Below are positions 3,929 through 40,720 of a stretch of 64,000 bases of DNA, one piece after another. How positions within the stretch are numbered: position 1 is the stretch's first letter; every line of letters begins with the position of its first letter. Made by a program: the position numbers and the translations under genes. Location of the stretch: positions 17,814 to 81,813 of the IMG/VR virus record IMGVR_UViG_3300009131_000001; one strand, given 5' to 3'. The notes beneath the pieces were generated by a model. It did no database searches. It was not told the origin of the DNA and worked only from the letters and a program-made list of their open reading frames with translations. This stretch comes from a virus (Duplodnaviria; Heunggongvirae; Uroviricota; Caudoviricetes).

Positions 3929-4024
3929 CTTACTATATTTATTTTTTACAAAAAAACACAATAAAATGCAAAAATCCAAATAATTATTAAATTATATATT
4001 AACTATTAAGGGAGCCACCTCTAA

Positions 4025-4207
4025 CTAATTTCTATCTACACCATCAATATATTCACCAGTAGCATCCCATGTAGGACATTTATATCCATTATAGAAATTA
4101 AATAATTCTGAATCTATTAATTCTTCTACACATAGTAGTAACAAAGAATCTTTATTATCAGTATCTAAAGTACTTATCCATTCTTGTAACCTCTCAGTTC
4201 TAGTCAT
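4025..4207 (-). CDS. hypothetical protein
   Basis: Tightly packed co-oriented ORF in the early block. Confidence 0.35.
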   Translation of the reverse strand: MTRTERLQEWISTLDTDNKDSLLLLCVEELIDSELFNFYNGYKCPTWDATGEYIDGVDRN

Positions 4208-4218
4208 TTTATTTAGTT

Positions 4219-4437
4219 CTATATATTATGAAAATCTATATAATAATTATCACCAATTTTAATAGCATCTACTTCTTTATAATCCACATATTCACAATAT
4301 TCGTGTGATTTTAATTCTTTCAAACTAATATCCCCTAATTTTTTCTTATTAGTAACATCATACACTACTGAAAACCCCATTTCGTGAAAAGCACAATAGT
4401 CCCCACTAATTTCAATATATACTCTAATTTTTTCCAT
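4219..4437 (-). CDS. hypothetical protein
   Basis: Co-oriented ORF, 2-nt spacing to its neighbour. Confidence 0.4.
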   Translation of the reverse strand: MEKIRVYIEISGDYCAFHEMGFSVVYDVTNKKKLGDISLKELKSHEYCEYVDYKEVDAIKIGDNYYIDFHNI

Positions 4438-4439
4438 AA

Positions 4440-4625
4440 TTATACTGTTTTATCAAATACTTTAACTTCAGCAAATAATACATTCAAATATAAAAATTCT
4501 TTGCTGACATTAATTGAAAATAATGATCTACTAAAATCCCAATGAGGTCTTTCAAGTCCACAAAAAGCTAAGTAAAATCCATTATAGGAATTCCACTCAA
4601 AATTAAACAATGTAAATCTCTCCAT
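4440..4625 (-). CDS. hypothetical protein
   Basis: Co-oriented ORF. Confidence 0.35.
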   Translation of the reverse strand: MERFTLFNFEWNSYNGFYLAFCGLERPHWDFSRSLFSINVSKEFLYLNVLFAEVKVFDKTV

Positions 4626-4639
4626 TTTATTTTTATTAA

Positions 4640-4861
4640 TTATTTTACAACTACAAATCCTGTTTTAGGAGCATAAAATCCATCTTGTTCTACTCTCCAG
4701 CTCATTCCTGAAGTATTTGACAAACCAACTACTATAGGTAATCCGCTAGTAGTAAATCCCTGACATACTCCATGTACTAATCCTTTATACCAAGGAGGAT
4801 TAAACACTATAGTATCCCCCACTTCTGGAATATTTCCTAAAATATCTTTTCTTATTTCCAT
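4640..4861 (-). CDS. hypothetical protein
   Basis: Co-oriented ORF, 1-nt spacing to the downstream gene. Confidence 0.4.
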   Translation of the reverse strand: MEIRKDILGNIPEVGDTIVFNPPWYKGLVHGVCQGFTTSGLPIVVGLSNTSGMSWRVEQDGFYAPKTGFVVVK

Positions 4862-4862
4862 T

Positions 4863-19478: not shown

Positions 19479-19841
19479 CTATCTATTATCACCACTCCCA
19501 TCAATCACTCCTCTATCTTGTCTAGAAGCTAGTTTATCAAGATTTGCTTGACATACTTCTTCAAGAGTCCAGCCCATAACTTTGCACAATCCTGCTACCT
19601 GCCAACATATATCACCGAGTTCACATTTTAATTCATTTTCAATGTTTATTGTATCATCAAATATACCTATCGCACGTAATTCGTTGCTTTTAATATCTAA
19701 ATCTTTTTTCCTAATACCTTTAGCAACTTTACTTGAAAATTCTCCAACCTCTCCAACAAGATTAAGCATCATATATGCAAAATTATCACTACTAGGCATA
19801 CAAGTAGTCATTGCTTTATCTTGATATTCATTTAATTCCAT
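19479..19841 (-). CDS. mazG: MazG-like nucleoside triphosphate pyrophosphohydrolase
   Basis: EYQDKA...LVGEVGEF...ELGDICWQV...LEEV...NLDKL is the MazG EExx(E/D) architecture. Confidence 0.7.
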   Translation of the reverse strand: MELNEYQDKAMTTCMPSSDNFAYMMLNLVGEVGEFSSKVAKGIRKKDLDIKSNELRAIGIFDDTINIENELKCELGDICWQVAGLCKVMGWTLEEVCQANLDKLASRQDRGVIDGSGDNR

Positions 19842-31276: not shown

Positions 31277-31401
31277 AAAGTCAAGTTTTAAATGTTAATA
31301 ATTAATTAGTTAGAAAAGAAAACCCATCCATAGAATATCACTATTCAAAAGATGGGTTCATTATTGTTTGTGGTTTCCTATACTTAGGAATTTATAAGAA
31401 G

Positions 31402-31510
31402 TGGCAAAGGCAGGATTTGAACCTGCAATTTGTAGCCTTGTAGTGTCATTGGGGCTACATCGAGAAAACACACTAAAACTCTAAGCGTCTACCAATTCCG
31501 CCACTTTGCC
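31402..31510 (-). tRNA. tRNA-like gene with an oversized central region. The acceptor, D and T arms are Leu-type (type II), but the anticodon/variable region cannot be folded canonically.
   Basis: Minus-strand GGCAAAG-TG-GCGGAATTGGTAGACGC...GCAGGTTCAAATCCTGC-CTTTGCC-A has a perfect 7-bp acceptor stem and a 5-bp T stem. GTGGCGGAATTGGTAGACGC is identical to the bacterial tRNA-Leu D arm. The 58 nt between the D and T arms exceed the ~35 nt expected for type II. A 7-bp stem TGTAGCC/GGCTACA is present. Confidence 0.5.
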
Positions 31511-31555
31511 ATAAAATAAATCCCTACCAATTTCTCAATTAATAGGGATTAAATG

Positions 31556-32416
31556 CTATTTATTCATATTCATAATAATACCTTGTCCAGAACCTAGCAT
31601 TGTTTCTGGCAATTTACCATTCCACTTTTGAATCCATTGTTGTTGTACCAATAAGGCATTTAAAGTAGTTTGTTTCAATCTATTAGCTTCTGCTTCTGCT
31701 CTAGCAATTGCAAGAAGTGCTTTAGCTTTACCTTCTGCTTGCGCTACTTCAATAGCTGCCTGTGCTTCAGCAGTTCTCTTTTCATTTTCAGCTTTTTGCG
31801 CTAATTGCGTTGCTTGTACTTTACTATTAAGAGCCTCTTGAACAGATTGCGGAATTCTCACAGAACCTATTAAATATAGATTATCTATAAATATTCCACT
31901 AGGCATTAGTTGATTTTTTACTATAATTTTTACAGTATCAATCATTTTAGACTTTCCTGCTCCATATACAGATTCTACAGGCATTGTAGAAGCTACTTTA
32001 TTTAATGCATCTCTGATTGAATTCCTAACAACTACTGCCCTAATTTCATCAACCCCTTTTCTATAAGTTTGAAACATTTTAGCAATACTAGCTTGTTCAA
32101 AATGCATTGAAACTCCTAAATCAGCAGAGCATTCCATACCTTCAACTGTCTGAAATACAAACTGCTCATTAGCAGGAGAGCCTTCATCTGATGAAGATGT
32201 ATACGTATAGTTTACCTGAAATGTAGGAAATGTAAATAATTCAGTATTAATTCCGATATAATATCTACCGGGGCCTACTACTTCATCATCAACTCCTTTA
32301 TCAGAACCTAACATATTAACCTTAATTCCTGCATAGCCAGATTCTACCTTATCCATACAAGATGTAAAGAATGTTACGCACATCCCAAAAACTAAAAATA
32401 AACTTACTTTTCTCAT
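31556..32416 (-). CDS. SPFH/band-7 (prohibitin/HflKC-like) lipoprotein
   Basis: Signal peptide plus lipobox FFTSC. The SPFH core is ...VVVRNSIRDALNKVASTMPVESVYG.... The C-terminus is an Ala/Glu-rich coiled coil (AEAQAAIEVAQAEGKAKALLAIARAEAEANRLKQ) typical of band-7 proteins. Confidence 0.65.
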   Translation of the reverse strand: MRKVSLFLVFGMCVTFFTSCMDKVESGYAGIKVNMLGSDKGVDDEVVGPGRYYIGINTELFTFPTFQVNYTYTSSSDEGSPANEQFVFQTVEGMECSADLGVSMHFEQASIAKMFQTYRKGVDEIRAVVVRNSIRDALNKVASTMPVESVYGAGKSKMIDTVKIIVKNQLMPSGIFIDNLYLIGSVRIPQSVQEALNSKVQATQLAQKAENEKRTAEAQAAIEVAQAEGKAKALLAIARAEAEANRLKQTTLNALLVQQQWIQKWNGKLPETMLGSGQGIIMNMNK

Positions 32417-35589: not shown

Positions 35590-35808
35590 TTTATTTAAGT
35601 TTTAAAAGTTAATAAAAACAATATCTCCACTACTATCACAGCACTAGAGATATTTAAATGCAAATCAATACAAAGGTGCAATTAAGGAATAAACCTTTGT
35701 AGTATTTTTACTTAATACCTATTAAACATAGTATTAAGATAATTGTAATTGTGATATATGAATGTTTATTCACCCATAACTCAAACTTAGTTAGTAGTTT
35801 ATCCATAG

Positions 35809-35952
35809 TTAATCAATTACAACCATTGATAAAATATACATAACATCTTCCGCAATTTCTTCAATGGCTTCTGTTCTTGAAGTGGCTTTAACTTGAATGT
35901 TTAAACAAGGAATTCCTTGCTTGTTGATAAATGAGAAAAAATAAGTTTTCAT
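35809..35952 (-). CDS. Small hypothetical protein. The probable start is the internal MKTYFF, preceded by a conserved upstream motif.
   Basis: The ORF track entry is 35809..36012. TTAACTTTTTAAAAC lies immediately upstream of the internal Met. Confidence 0.35.
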   Translation of the reverse strand: MKTYFFSFINKQGIPCLNIQVKATSRTEAIEEIAEDVMYILSMVVID

Positions 35953-36105
35953 TGTGTTTTGTTTTAAAAAGTTAATGTTAAATATCTCAATTAGTTTAAA
36001 TAACATCACCACGTAGAGGTTTGAGATATGATGTCATTTTATACATAGTGTATCACTACAATATGTAAAGGGATTTCAACCTGTATAACCTATTTATGAA
36101 AAAAT

Positions 36106-40086: not shown

Positions 40087-40246
40087 TATAAAGTGTGCAA
40101 TCCACTATTCTGTCTGTAATTTACCTGTTAACTTGCTTCAGCGTTCCATCATAGCCTCCAAGTCTTAGTTGAGCAGCTAGGTAACGGTTAGGCAGGACTT
40201 TCACCTTCAGGTTGTGGTATAACTTCAAATTAAGCACACTTTATAT
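40087..40246. ncRNA. candidate structured RNA or IR-bounded element: 12-bp perfect inverted repeat (tataaagtgtgc / gcacactttata) enclosing a ~136-nt segment of clearly higher GC than its surroundings
   Basis: Seen in the sequence. It is non-coding in all frames and lies in the 5' region of the leftward early transcription unit. Confidence 0.35.
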
Positions 40247-40330
40247 AGGAAACCCCAATAGGGGATATGCCCAAAATTTAGTTTGGGTGTGGGGGTTATG
40301 GGTGGGTTAGTCAGTGATATTATTAGTATT

Positions 40331-40413
40331 CAAAATTTTGAAAAAATTATCAAAAATTTTATAGTTAATGATCTCAGTAATATCCAAAATTTTAAAAATT
40401 TTTCAAAAAATTA
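40331..40413. repeat. Two ~30-bp AT-rich direct repeats (caaaattttgaaaaaattatcaaaaatttt / ccaaaattttaaaaatttttcaaaaaatta), each containing the palindrome CAAAATTTTG or a near match. Candidate origin iterons or regulator sites.
   Basis: Direct reading; about 53 bp centre-to-centre. Confidence 0.5.
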
Positions 40414-40432
40414 TTTTACTACTTAAGGTCAT

Positions 40433-40465
40433 GTACTTAAATAAGTACACTAGTGTACTTAAATT
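40433..40465. promoter_or_regulatory. Stacked palindromic operator-like sites: gtacttaaataagtac and the 18-bp perfect palindrome aagtacactagtgtactt. There are three GTACTTA / TAAGTAC half-sites.
   Basis: Direct reading. Confidence 0.5.
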
Positions 40466-40600
40466 AAGATACCTAAAGAATAGTAGTTATAGAGTAAATA
40501 AAGAGAAGGAACTGTTAGTATTTTTATAGGATAATTATTTGAATACTAGTGAGTTAAGTATTGAAATACTCCATTCCTTAGTAGTATCAGACTACCTTGA

Positions 40601-40638
40601 TAGTCATACCAGAGTGATGCTTAGTCATACCAGAGTGA
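40601..40638. promoter_or_regulatory. Tandem 17-bp direct repeat tagtcataccagagtga x2 with a 21-bp period, immediately upstream of the rightward promoter
   Basis: Direct reading. Confidence 0.5.
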
Positions 40639-40667
40639 CTAAAAATGTTAAATAAGTACGACTATTA

Positions 40668-40699
40668 TTTGGAATTGTTAGATATTAGTCATATTTTTG
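40668..40699 (+). promoter_or_regulatory. Bacteroidota-type sigma-A promoter for the rightward operon: -33 TTTG, a 20-nt spacer, then -7 TAttTTTG
   Basis: TTTG at 40668-40671 and TATTTTTG at 40692-40699. The spacing matches the Bacteroides/Flavobacterium consensus TTTG-N19-21-TAnnTTTG. The ATG at 40721 has no SD. Confidence 0.5.
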
Positions 40700-40720
40700 T
40701 AAGACTAAATTAAAATAATT

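What the first reader, a model, noticed from the sequence alone, without database searches (positions are those of the whole stretch)
31402..31510. Oversized tRNA-like gene: Leu-type acceptor, D and T arms but about 20 extra nt in the anticodon/variable region
The minus strand encodes a 109-nt molecule. The acceptor stem is perfect (GGCAAAG/CTTTGCC), the D arm is identical to bacterial tRNA-Leu (GTGGCGGAATTGGTAGACGC) and the T arm is canonical (GCAGG-TTCAAAT-CCTGC). The 58 nt between D and T arms cannot form a standard anticodon arm. TAGAG/CTCGA would enclose a 14-nt loop, TTTTAGTGTGTTTT. A 7-bp stem TGTAGCC/GGCTACA with a 15-nt loop lies where the variable arm should be. One reading gives the loop TTTTAGT, that is anticodon UUA, which decodes UAA (ochre suppressor). 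Alternatively this is an intron-like insertion, a non-canonical decoder or a degenerate tRNA. Phage suppressor tRNAs are linked to stop-codon recoding, but no in-frame stops are seen in the late genes here.
Basis: seen in the sequence. Interest (0 to 1): 0.6.

Follow-up and report, generated by a model that had tools for sequence, protein, structure and literature searches.

The report
Anticodon-less tRNA-Leu look-alike in a phage
The 109-nt gene is real and has a perfect tRNA-Leu acceptor stem, D arm and T arm but no usable anticodon arm, and it belongs to a large, apparently undescribed family of phage RNAs that keep the part of tRNA-Leu recognised by processing and charging enzymes while the rest varies freely.

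Summary
Window 31402-31510 (minus strand) scores 42.7 bits on Rfam tRNA (threshold 29). It has a 7/7 acceptor stem, a bacterial tRNA-Leu D arm, a canonical T arm and discriminator A. A 58-nt middle replaces the roughly 33 nt of a normal tRNA-Leu.

The ochre-suppressor reading is not supported. There is no 7-nt loop closed by a 5-bp stem. The ARAGORN "intron" model is weak, and the phage reads normally in the standard code.

Pattern scans found more than 250 similar genes in viral, metagenomic and genome contigs, including the cultured Bacteroides phage BS-TP2, where it is unannotated. All share the tRNA-Leu frame. Their middles run from 16 to about 130 nt and are nearly all unrelated in sequence. 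As a group the middles show no U33 and no anticodon stem above chance. The base before the T stem is U in 96%, as expected for the partner of A15. Two sub-families show compensatory changes in helices of the middle.

What is conserved matches the published leucyl-tRNA synthetase determinants, for which the anticodon arm is dispensable. My best explanation (0.6) is a non-decoding, probably chargeable tRNA-Leu mimic. Its downstream role is unknown; decoy, amino-acid donor and processing signal are the candidates.

The parts
31402..31510 (-). Whole 109-nt tRNA-Leu-like RNA gene. No CCA is encoded; the next bases are CUU.
   Evidence: Rfam tRNA 42.7 bits, full model 1-71; sequence.
31504..31510 (-). 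Acceptor stem, 5' strand GGCAAAG.
   Evidence: 7/7 Watson-Crick pairs with 31403-31409.
31403..31409 (-). Acceptor stem, 3' strand CUUUGCC. The discriminator A is at 31402.
   Evidence: An A discriminator is the main LeuRS determinant (PMC2377443).
31485..31501 (-). D arm GCG-GAAUUGGUAGA-CGC: 3-bp stem, A14, A15, G18, G19. It is identical to the D arm of bacterial tRNA-Leu genes.
   Evidence: The same D arm occurs in ordinary-looking chromosomal tRNA-Leu genes such as L275.
31460..31483 (-). Hairpin P1 in the anticodon-arm position: UAGAG / 14-nt loop UUUUAGUGUGUUUU / CUCGA. 4 of 5 pairs, with one A.G mismatch.
   Evidence: It is not a canonical anticodon arm.
31431..31459 (-). Hairpin P3 in the variable-arm position: UGUAGCC / 15-nt loop / GGCUACA (7 bp).
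   Evidence: Present in both the MFE and centroid folds and in the frame-constrained fold. A stem ending near the T arm is enriched in the family: P3 of 7 bp or more in 26% against 13% of shuffles.
31470..31475 (-). UAGUGU in the P1 loop. It could pair with ACACUA (31441-31446) in the P3 loop as a 6-bp loop-loop contact.
   Evidence: Duplex energy -6.7 kcal/mol. Not significant on its own: a helix of 6 bp or more appears in 5% of shuffles. Inferred only.
31427..31430 (-). Linker AAUU. The U at 31427 sits where U48, the tertiary partner of A15, belongs.
   Evidence: The base before the T stem is T in 96% of 134 family members.
31410..31426 (-). T arm GCAGG-UUCAAAU-CCUGC.
31519..31550 (-). Terminator-like hairpin followed by a U tract, between the stop codon of the SPFH gene and the 5' end of the RNA.
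31313..31358 (-). Second terminator-like hairpin (AACCCAUC...GAUGGGUU, then UUCUUUUC), about 45 nt 3' of the RNA.
   Evidence: Read from the sequence.
31556..32416 (-). Upstream gene on the same strand, an SPFH/Band 7 protein (context only).
   Evidence: Pfam PF01145, E 2.6e-18. Homologous SPFH genes lie 31-74 nt upstream of other family members in L077, L093 and L141.

Best explanation
The gene encodes a non-decoding tRNA-Leu mimic.

Shown:
- It keeps every element of the tRNA 'top half' and elbow: a 7-bp acceptor stem, discriminator A73, U8/A14, A15 with a U48-equivalent, G18G19 and a canonical T loop.
- The anticodon and variable arms are replaced by a lineage-specific module of two hairpins that cannot present a 7-nt anticodon loop.
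- It is one member of a very large phage-borne family built on the same plan.

Inferred:
- The RNA is transcribed with the early/replication gene block, either by read-through of the hairpin after the SPFH gene or from an unrecognised promoter.
- RNase P cuts its 5' end. The 3' end is trimmed and CCA is added, because no CCA is encoded.
- It folds into an L shape.
- The retained elements are those published as sufficient for bacterial leucyl-tRNA synthetase, whose aminoacylation does not need the anticodon arm. It is therefore probably bound, and likely charged, by the host enzyme.

Not established: what the mimic then does. In order of preference, the candidates are:
1. A nuclease-insensitive decoy or sponge for host factors that target long-variable-arm tRNAs or tRNA 3' ends.
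2. A leucine donor for, or modulator of, a tRNA-dependent enzyme.
3. A stable tRNA-shaped carrier for the variable structured module.
For: Frame:
- Rfam tRNA 42.7 bits over the full model.
- 7/7 acceptor pairs and 5/5 T-stem pairs, and a tRNA-Leu D arm.
- G+C 46% against 30% for the genome.

No decoding arm:
- Default ARAGORN finds nothing.
- The Rfam alignment leaves 51 nt unaligned.

Family, from pattern scans:
- IMG/VR: 111 of 134 matches have at least 6/7 acceptor pairs and at least 4/5 T-stem pairs, giving 97 distinct sequences.
- Metagenome contigs: 50 of 69 pass.
- Genome contigs: 47 of 122 pass.
- With the acceptor type AGUCAGG alone there are 110 distinct closed elements, 70 to about 180 nt long. 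I saw no canonical anticodon arm among those I inspected. Up to 5 copies occur in one phage locus.
- The 179 distinct middles fall into 150 similarity clusters.

Family-wide features:
- T at the U33-equivalent position is 28%, which is background.
- Pairing in the canonical anticodon-stem position equals shuffles.
- The U48-equivalent is T in 96%.
- Position 26 is A or T in 90%.
- The discriminator is A in 82%.

The middles are under structural selection:
- Mean MFE z-score is -0.82 (p 1e-9).
- In a 7-sequence sub-family, 96% of cells pair against 32-39% in slid controls. The helix in the anticodon-stem position changes on both sides in 3 of its 4 pairs.
- A second sub-family shows a pseudoknot helix as AGCUUU/AAAGCU, UAACAGC/GCUGUUA and UGUAAU/AUUACA.

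LeuRS determinants:
- A73 plus the tertiary core (U8-A14, A15-U48, G18-U55, G19-C56) define leucine identity.
- Deleting the whole anticodon stem-loop costs only 2.5-fold in affinity (PMC2377443).

A family member is present and unannotated in the cultured Bacteroides phage BS-TP2.
Against: - There are no expression, end-mapping or charging data for any member.
- The window RNA has no alignable relative. Its own P1, P3 and loop-loop pairing therefore rest on a single sequence.
- Its MFE z-score is only -1.62, and the loop-loop helix is within chance.
- I defined the family by my own patterns, which required the Leu D arm and a T loop at an unusual spacing. The Leu-type frame is therefore partly built in by the way I searched.
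- 18% of members lack an A discriminator, which would weaken charging.
- No conserved protein partner lies nearby.
- The closest relatives of the flanking SPFH gene (75% identity) lack the RNA at that site and carry ordinary tRNAs instead.
- The literature search covered only open-access text, so a prior description could have been missed.
Confidence: 0.6

Rival explanations
1. It is a cis-acting processing or 'punctuation' element only. The tRNA shape recruits RNase P and RNase Z to cut the polycistronic early transcript and to define the 3' end of the SPFH mRNA. The released RNA has no function of its own.
For: - The RNA is always on the same strand as its neighbours (same-strand fraction 1.0 in neighbour clusters).
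- In the window it starts 8 nt after a hairpin that could protect the upstream mRNA's 3' end.
- Genomic contexts are diverse, with no protein partner.
- The middles vary freely.
Against: - RNase P needs only a generic acceptor/T-arm minihelix and elbow. That does not explain the retention of the Leu-specific D arm, the A15/U48 pair (96%) and an A discriminator (82%).
- It also does not explain compensatory changes in the middles.
- It does not explain up to 5 tandem or nearby copies in one phage locus.
- The Leu frame is partly built in by my search patterns, so this counter-argument is weakened.
Confidence: 0.15
2. It is an interrupted tRNA gene. A short intervening sequence (26 nt in ARAGORN's model, or the 7 nt GUGUUUU) is removed, leaving a Leu-type tRNA with anticodon UUA that reads UAA (an ochre suppressor).
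For: - ARAGORN in intron mode reports tRNA-Stop(tta), 84 nt plus a 26-nt intron.
- UUUUAG sits exactly at positions 32-37 after a 5-nt stem strand.
- L006/L007 carry the same loop in a perfect 5-bp anticodon arm.
- Other phage and bacterial tRNA genes with short non-group-I inserts in intact anticodon arms exist: L039, L120, L059.
Against: - The spliced model has an A.A mismatch in the anticodon stem and a 14-nt variable region with no stem.
- The proposed splice sites lie inside a continuous 6-bp helix, not in the two bulges of an archaeal-type splice motif (my inspection).
- There is no group I intron signal, and 26 nt is far too short for one.
- I know of no bacterial mechanism that removes such inserts (own knowledge).
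- The window has normal standard-code ORF coverage. UAA would be the main stop codon in a 30% G+C genome.
- The family shows no U33 signal.
Confidence: 0.08
3. It is a decaying tRNA-Leu pseudogene whose middle has drifted.
For: - The anticodon arm is unrecognisable.
- There is no close homologue of the middle anywhere.
- The closest relatives of the phage lack it at this site.
Against: - Both stems of the frame are perfect and every conserved tertiary base is intact, while only the middle differs.
- The same pattern recurs in hundreds of independent phage contigs, with a conserved U48-equivalent.
- Helices in the middles show compensatory substitutions.
- G+C is 16 points above the genome average.
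Confidence: 0.08
4. It is a functional decoder used as it stands, with an expanded 14-nt anticodon loop. It would read UAA or a longer or unusual codon.
For: Natural tRNAs with 8-nt anticodon loops exist (PMC7609411). UUA lies at the right distance from the D arm.
Against: - A 14-nt loop is far outside any known decoding tRNA.
- The loop can pair with the P3 loop.
- There is no recoding signal in the window.
- The family as a whole has no anticodon-loop signature.
Confidence: 0.04

Closest known systems
Bacterial and phage tRNA-Leu (long-variable-arm type, Rfam RF00005)
   Same: Identical D arm, 7-bp acceptor stem, discriminator A73, A15/U48, canonical T arm, and a stem-loop in the variable-arm position.
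   Different: There is no 5-bp stem with a 7-nt anticodon loop. The middle is 58 nt instead of about 33. Default ARAGORN does not call it. The family has no U33 signal.
Engineered minimal tRNA-Leu substrates of LeuRS (anticodon arm deleted)
   Same: It retains the parts reported as necessary for leucylation and varies the part reported as dispensable (PMC2377443).
   Different: Those are laboratory constructs. This is a natural gene, charging is untested, and the variable-arm orientation that A. aeolicus LeuRS requires cannot be judged from sequence.
YrlA / bacterial Y RNAs (Rfam RF02553), tRNA mimics found in bacteria and phages
   Same: A non-coding RNA with tRNA-like acceptor, D and T elements and a Levitt pair. 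YrlA is recognised by tRNA enzymes (PMC4201824). A YrlA-like permuted tRNA lies next to the relative in L007.
   Different: In YrlA the 5' and 3' ends lie in the Ro-binding stem that replaces the anticodon arm, and the acceptor stem is closed by a loop. Here the ends form the acceptor stem. There is no YrlA hit in the window.
tmRNA tRNA-like domain
   Same: A chargeable tRNA top half joined to a pseudoknotted, non-anticodon body.
   Different: There is no G3.U70 alanine identity pair (here it is C3-G70). The D arm is complete, no open reading frame is present, the size is 109 nt, and neither ARAGORN nor Rfam reports a tmRNA.
Phage T4 stable RNAs, species 1 and 2 (rnaC, rnaD)
   Same: Small stable phage RNAs of unknown function encoded in the T4 tRNA region. 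rnaC ends in a canonical T arm and an acceptor-like stem.
   Different: rnaC has no Leu-type D arm, only 5/7 acceptor pairs by eye, and no sequence similarity. The comparison was by inspection only.
Phage suppressor tRNAs linked to stop-codon recoding
   Same: A phage-encoded tRNA-like gene with UUA at the anticodon position. A normal-sized Leu-type tRNA(UUA) exists in IMG/VR (L043).
   Different: There is no closed anticodon arm here and no sign of recoding in the window.

Membership tests
Canonical tRNA (Rfam RF00005) | Score at or above the curated threshold over the full model | tested here: met
   42.7 bits against 29, model positions 1-71.
Canonical tRNA (Rfam RF00005) | 7-bp acceptor stem, D arm with G18G19, and T arm with a TTCRANT loop | tested here: met
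Canonical tRNA (Rfam RF00005) | 5-bp anticodon stem closing a 7-nt loop with U33 | tested here: not met
   51 nt are unaligned in the Rfam match. The best local stem has 4/5 pairs around a 14-nt loop. Default ARAGORN finds nothing.
Bacterial tRNA-Leu as a LeuRS substrate | Discriminator A73 | tested here: met
   A at 31402. A in 82% of family members.
Bacterial tRNA-Leu as a LeuRS substrate | Tertiary core: U8-A14, A15-U48, G18/G19 with the T loop | tested here: met
   All these bases are present in the sequence. The U48-equivalent is T in 96% of the family. The determinants are taken from PMC2377443.
Bacterial tRNA-Leu as a LeuRS substrate | Actual aminoacylation with leucine | not testable with these tools
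   Needs an in vitro charging assay or acid-gel analysis.
Bacterial tRNA-Leu as a decoder | Leu anticodon (NAG, UAA or CAA) in a canonical loop | tested here: not met
Ochre suppressor tRNA | Anticodon UUA presented in a closed 7-nt loop | tested here: not met
   UUUUAGU is followed by GUGUU, which cannot pair with UAGAG. ARAGORN's version needs a 26-nt intron and a mismatched stem.
Ochre suppressor tRNA | Genes of the phage interrupted by in-frame UAA, or poor standard-code ORF coverage | tested here: not met
   Coverage by stop-to-stop ORFs of at least 100 aa is 78% in code 11. The increase on UAA read-through is the non-specific rise expected in a 30% G+C genome. This is a coarse test.
Group I intron-containing tRNA | Match to the group I intron catalytic core | tested here: not met
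   No Intron_gpI hit at the gathering threshold or at E up to 5. The same model did detect one in L035.
Archaeal/eukaryal-type spliced tRNA | Bulge-helix-bulge motif at the splice sites | tested here: not met
   By inspection, ARAGORN's splice sites fall inside a continuous 6-bp helix (UAGUGU/ACACUA), not in 3-nt bulges. No dedicated search program was run.
tmRNA | tRNA-like domain with G3.U70 plus a tag reading frame | tested here: not met
   ARAGORN -m reports 0 tmRNA genes. There is no Rfam tmRNA hit. The pair is C3-G70.
YrlA / Y RNA | Match to the Rfam YrlA model and permuted topology (ends in the Ro-binding stem) | tested here: not met
   No hit in the window. The ends form the acceptor stem. 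I did not check for a Ro60 gene in the phage.

The most novel reading that the evidence does not exclude
Phages of many lineages, including Bacteroides phages, encode a widespread and so far unannotated class of anticodon-less tRNA-Leu mimics. These RNAs are processed and leucylated by host enzymes but never decode. Their hypervariable, often pseudoknotted middle is the business end. It could be a nuclease-proof decoy against host defences that attack long-variable-arm tRNAs or tRNA 3' ends, or a cargo displayed on a natural tRNA scaffold. That would be a new functional class of viral non-coding RNA.
Probability: 0.3. Interest if true: 0.85.

Novelty: new variant of a known kind. Interest (0 to 1): 0.68.

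Why it matters
If these RNAs are stable and charged, they would be a natural counterpart of the laboratory "minimal tRNA-Leu" and "tRNA scaffold" constructs.

They would also be a new class of tRNA mimic alongside tmRNA and Y RNAs, carried by hundreds of phages and invisible to standard annotation. ARAGORN misses them, and the GenBank record of Bacteroides phage BS-TP2 leaves its copy blank.

Their extreme diversity on a fixed frame is the pattern expected of an arms-race molecule. That links them to the recent finding that bacterial defences cut long-variable-arm tRNAs.

On the practical side, Rfam-type tRNA hits of 100-130 nt in phage genomes should not be annotated as suppressor tRNAs, and recoding should not be inferred from them.

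A cultured host-phage pair (Bacteroides salyersiae BG8 and BS-TP2) makes the question directly testable.

Tried and rejected
Searches that found nothing:
- Close DNA relatives of the region in cultured phages: none.
- Exact 5' and 3' frame sequences in IMG/VR: none.
- A metagenome scan using the window's own T arm: 70 loci, but none alignable to the window's middle. Covariation for the window RNA itself could therefore not be tested.

Neighbour-based search for positional relatives:
- The closest SPFH homologues (69-76% identity) either carry ordinary tRNAs nearby or have only a terminator at the site.

Ideas tested and dropped:
- Antisense-target idea. The 58-nt middle has no complementarity of 12 nt or more elsewhere in the window, and matches at 11 nt are below the shuffle expectation.
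- One common architecture for all middles (stem at position 27, stem before the T arm, loop-loop helix). Only the 3' stem is enriched over shuffles.
- A conserved protein partner. Neighbours are diverse and include DUF3127, NinG, HNH endonucleases, terminase subunits and SPFH.
- A known Rfam family for the middles. Nothing was found beyond tRNA.
- T4 rnaC/rnaD as homologues. Only a T arm is shared.

Literature:
- Eight full-text searches found no description of this family.

Full report
**1. What is in the window**

The minus strand of 31402-31510 reads:

GGCAAAG UG GCG GAAUUGGUAGA CGC U UAGAG UUUUAGUGUGUUUU CUCGA UGUAGCC CCAAUGACACUACAA GGCUACA AAUU GCAGG UUCAAAU CCUGC CUUUGCC A

- Rfam's tRNA model matches end to end at 42.7 bits (threshold 29). 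It leaves 51 nt unaligned where the anticodon arm belongs.
- It is the only tRNA-type hit in the 64-kb window.
- Default ARAGORN reports nothing. With introns allowed it reports tRNA-Stop(tta) with a 26-nt intron. That model has an A.A mismatch in the anticodon stem and a stemless 14-nt variable region.
- The single-sequence fold is not exceptional (z = -1.62).
- The RNA has 46% G+C in a 30% G+C genome.

**2. Context**

- The window is a phage. All genes in this block are on the minus strand: an SPFH/Band 7 gene directly upstream, then small ORFs, a family A DNA polymerase and a helicase downstream.
- A terminator-like hairpin ends 8 nt before the RNA. A second one follows about 45 nt after it.
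- Standard-code ORFs cover the window normally, so there is no sign of stop-codon recoding.
- The contig is known from a Logan assembly (78 kb) and a JGI contig (99.7 kb). No cultured phage resembles it.

**3. Relatives**

- Exact frame sequences gave nothing in IMG/VR.
- Requiring the Leu D arm followed by UUUUAG found L006/L007. This is a 118-nt gene with a perfect anticodon arm GUACU-UUUUAGG-AGUAU and a 49-nt variable region.
Of 134 matches, 111 have at least 6/7 acceptor pairs and at least 4/5 T-stem pairs, giving 97 distinct genes of 102-132 nt.
- A metagenome scan with the window's T arm gave 50 valid genes from 69 matches.
- A scan of one genome per prokaryotic species gave 47 valid genes from 122 matches, in contigs assigned to many phyla.
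- Searching only the most common acceptor-plus-D-arm start (AGTCAGGTGGCGGAAT) gave 110 distinct closed elements. Their lengths run continuously from 70 to about 180 nt. I saw no canonical anticodon arm among those I inspected. One phage locus (L052) carries five copies with different middles.
- One member, 100% identical to L055, lies unannotated at 19550-19657 of the cultured Bacteroides phage BS-TP2, between a DUF2303 gene and ninG.
- Most members are the only tRNA-like gene in their roughly 10-kb locus. Default ARAGORN calls none of them.

**4. What is conserved and what is not**

- The 179 distinct middles form 150 similarity clusters. The window's middle is a singleton.
- In the canonical anticodon-stem position, pairing equals the shuffled control: 3 observed cases of 5/5 against 2.4 expected.
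- The U33-equivalent position is T in 28%, which is background.
- By contrast, the base before the T stem is T in 96%, position 26 is A or T in 90%, and the discriminator is A in 82%.
- The middles are not junk. Their folding energies are shifted (mean z -0.82, p 1e-9), and a stem ending just before the T arm is enriched.
- In a 7-sequence sub-family, 96% of cells pair against 32-39% in slid controls. The helix in the anticodon-stem position shows compensatory changes in 3 of its 4 pairs. This sub-family includes copies that also sit just after an SPFH gene.
- A second sub-family keeps a pseudoknot helix through three different sequences.
- No single architecture fits all middles, and none matches a known Rfam family.

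**5. Interpretation**

The conserved set is the acceptor helix, A73, U8-A14, A15-U48, G18G19 and the T loop. This is the published identity set for bacterial leucyl-tRNA synthetase. In A. aeolicus, deleting the whole anticodon stem-loop costs only 2.5-fold in affinity (PMC2377443).

I therefore read the window RNA as a non-decoding tRNA-Leu mimic. It would be processed like a tRNA and is probably bound or charged by LeuRS. Its anticodon and variable arms are replaced by two hairpins: P1, with 4/5 pairs and a 14-nt loop, and P3, with 7 bp and a 15-nt loop. Their loops could form a 6-bp contact (UAGUGU/ACACUA, -6.7 kcal/mol). That contact is within chance expectation.

The UUA 'anticodon' is then most likely a coincidence in a U-rich loop. 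The repeated UAG(A/U)G motif explains why ARAGORN could build an alternative stem.

What the mimic does is not shown. [quoted passage not shown] No conserved protein neighbour points to a specific partner. No antisense target exists in the window.

**6. Rivals**

| Explanation | Confidence | Main point |
|---|---|---|
| RNase P/Z processing signal with no function of its own | 0.15 | Fits strand and context; does not explain Leu-specific conservation or structured middles |
| Interrupted suppressor tRNA | 0.08 | Kept alive by L006/L007 and by other short-insert tRNA genes seen in passing |
| Pseudogene | 0.08 | Contradicted by perfect frames across hundreds of contigs |
| Decoder with a 14-nt loop | 0.04 | No precedent, no recoding signal |

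**7. Comparison and novelty**

The closest known things are canonical tRNA-Leu, engineered minimal tRNA-Leu, YrlA/Y RNAs, the tmRNA tRNA-like domain and the T4 stable RNAs rnaC/rnaD. It fails a defining feature of each: there is no anticodon arm, it is not permuted, and it has no G3.U70 or tag frame.

Eight full-text literature searches found no description of this family. One survey of structured RNAs in viral sequences mentions unnamed 'tRNA-like' candidates only in general terms (PMC10690425). I rate it a new variant of a known kind (tRNA mimic).

**8. Caveats**

- The family was ascertained with my own patterns, so the Leu-type frame is partly built in.
- The window RNA has no alignable relative, so its internal helices are unverified.
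- Nothing about expression or charging has been measured.

Noticed in passing
L039 3448-3563(-) and 11794-11909(-) (IMGVR_UViG_3300045988_177541, 229-kb phage): Two 116-nt tRNA-Val/Pro-like genes with intact anticodon stems and 43-45-nt inserts in the anticodon loop. Both inserts share the motif GAACAGCAA. They are far too short for group I introns.
   Followed up: no
L012 2716-2899(+), L013 493-676(-), L020 667-850(-) and relatives L008, L017, L023, L032, L034, L041: 184-nt Leu-frame genes whose middle contains a second tRNA-like cloverleaf with its own D-like arm, T arm (GGGUUCGAAUCCC) and acceptor-like stem. It looks like a tRNA nested in a tRNA.
   Followed up: partly
L007 896-1016(-): A permuted tRNA (T arm, acceptor 3' strand, loop, acceptor 5' strand, D arm). 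It scores 34 bits on Rfam YrlA, below the threshold of 69. It lies about 85 nt upstream of the Leu-like RNA of L006/L007.
   Followed up: partly
L260, L264, L254, L286, L312, L320 (bacterial genome contigs from several phyla): tRNA-Leu genes with typical bacterial acceptor stems and normal variable arms. Their anticodon stem continues into a 15-20-bp hairpin in place of the 7-nt loop. I did not check whether these are spliced, non-decoding or disrupted by small palindromic insertions.
   Followed up: no
L052 (5 copies), L080 (3), L368, L373, L395, L411, L410 (2 each); L393; L419 and L154: Several AGUCAGG-frame elements per phage locus, each with a different middle. L393 is a collapsed copy (AGTCAGGTGGCGGAAT joined directly to CCTGTCCTGACTA). 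L419 and L154 carry roughly 70-nt inserts inside the D loop.
   Followed up: no
L437 2501-2548 (Cellulophaga phage phi10:1, KC821618.1 3010-3057): A free-standing, unannotated copy of the pseudoknot-like motif (AAGGUUAACAGUA...AGUAACCU.GAAAUACCC) that forms the middle of the framed RNAs L111/L049. It has no tRNA frame and is followed by a terminator. The match is weak (79% over 47 nt, E 0.4).
   Followed up: partly
L438 4001-4108 (Bacteroides phage BS-TP2, PQ571275.1 19550-19657): A 108-nt family member in a cultured phage, with no feature annotated in the record. It lies in the recombination/replication module.
   Followed up: yes
L022 and L026 (near 5008-5123 in L022): A truncated Leu-type 5' half (acceptor, D arm, part of the anticodon arm) directly upstream of an intact tRNA-Leu(UAA). 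L022 also carries a permuted tmRNA. This could be the scar of an integration site.
   Followed up: no
L003 432-493 and 2841-2913; L005 1433-1503: The closest relatives of the window's SPFH region carry tRNA hits with odd features: matches only to model positions 6-65, a C at position 33, and a shortened anticodon region.
   Followed up: no
window 3992-4862, 40105-40708 and 35602-36105: Stretches of 500-870 nt without any stop-to-stop ORF of at least 80 aa. Rfam at gathering thresholds finds nothing there.
   Followed up: no
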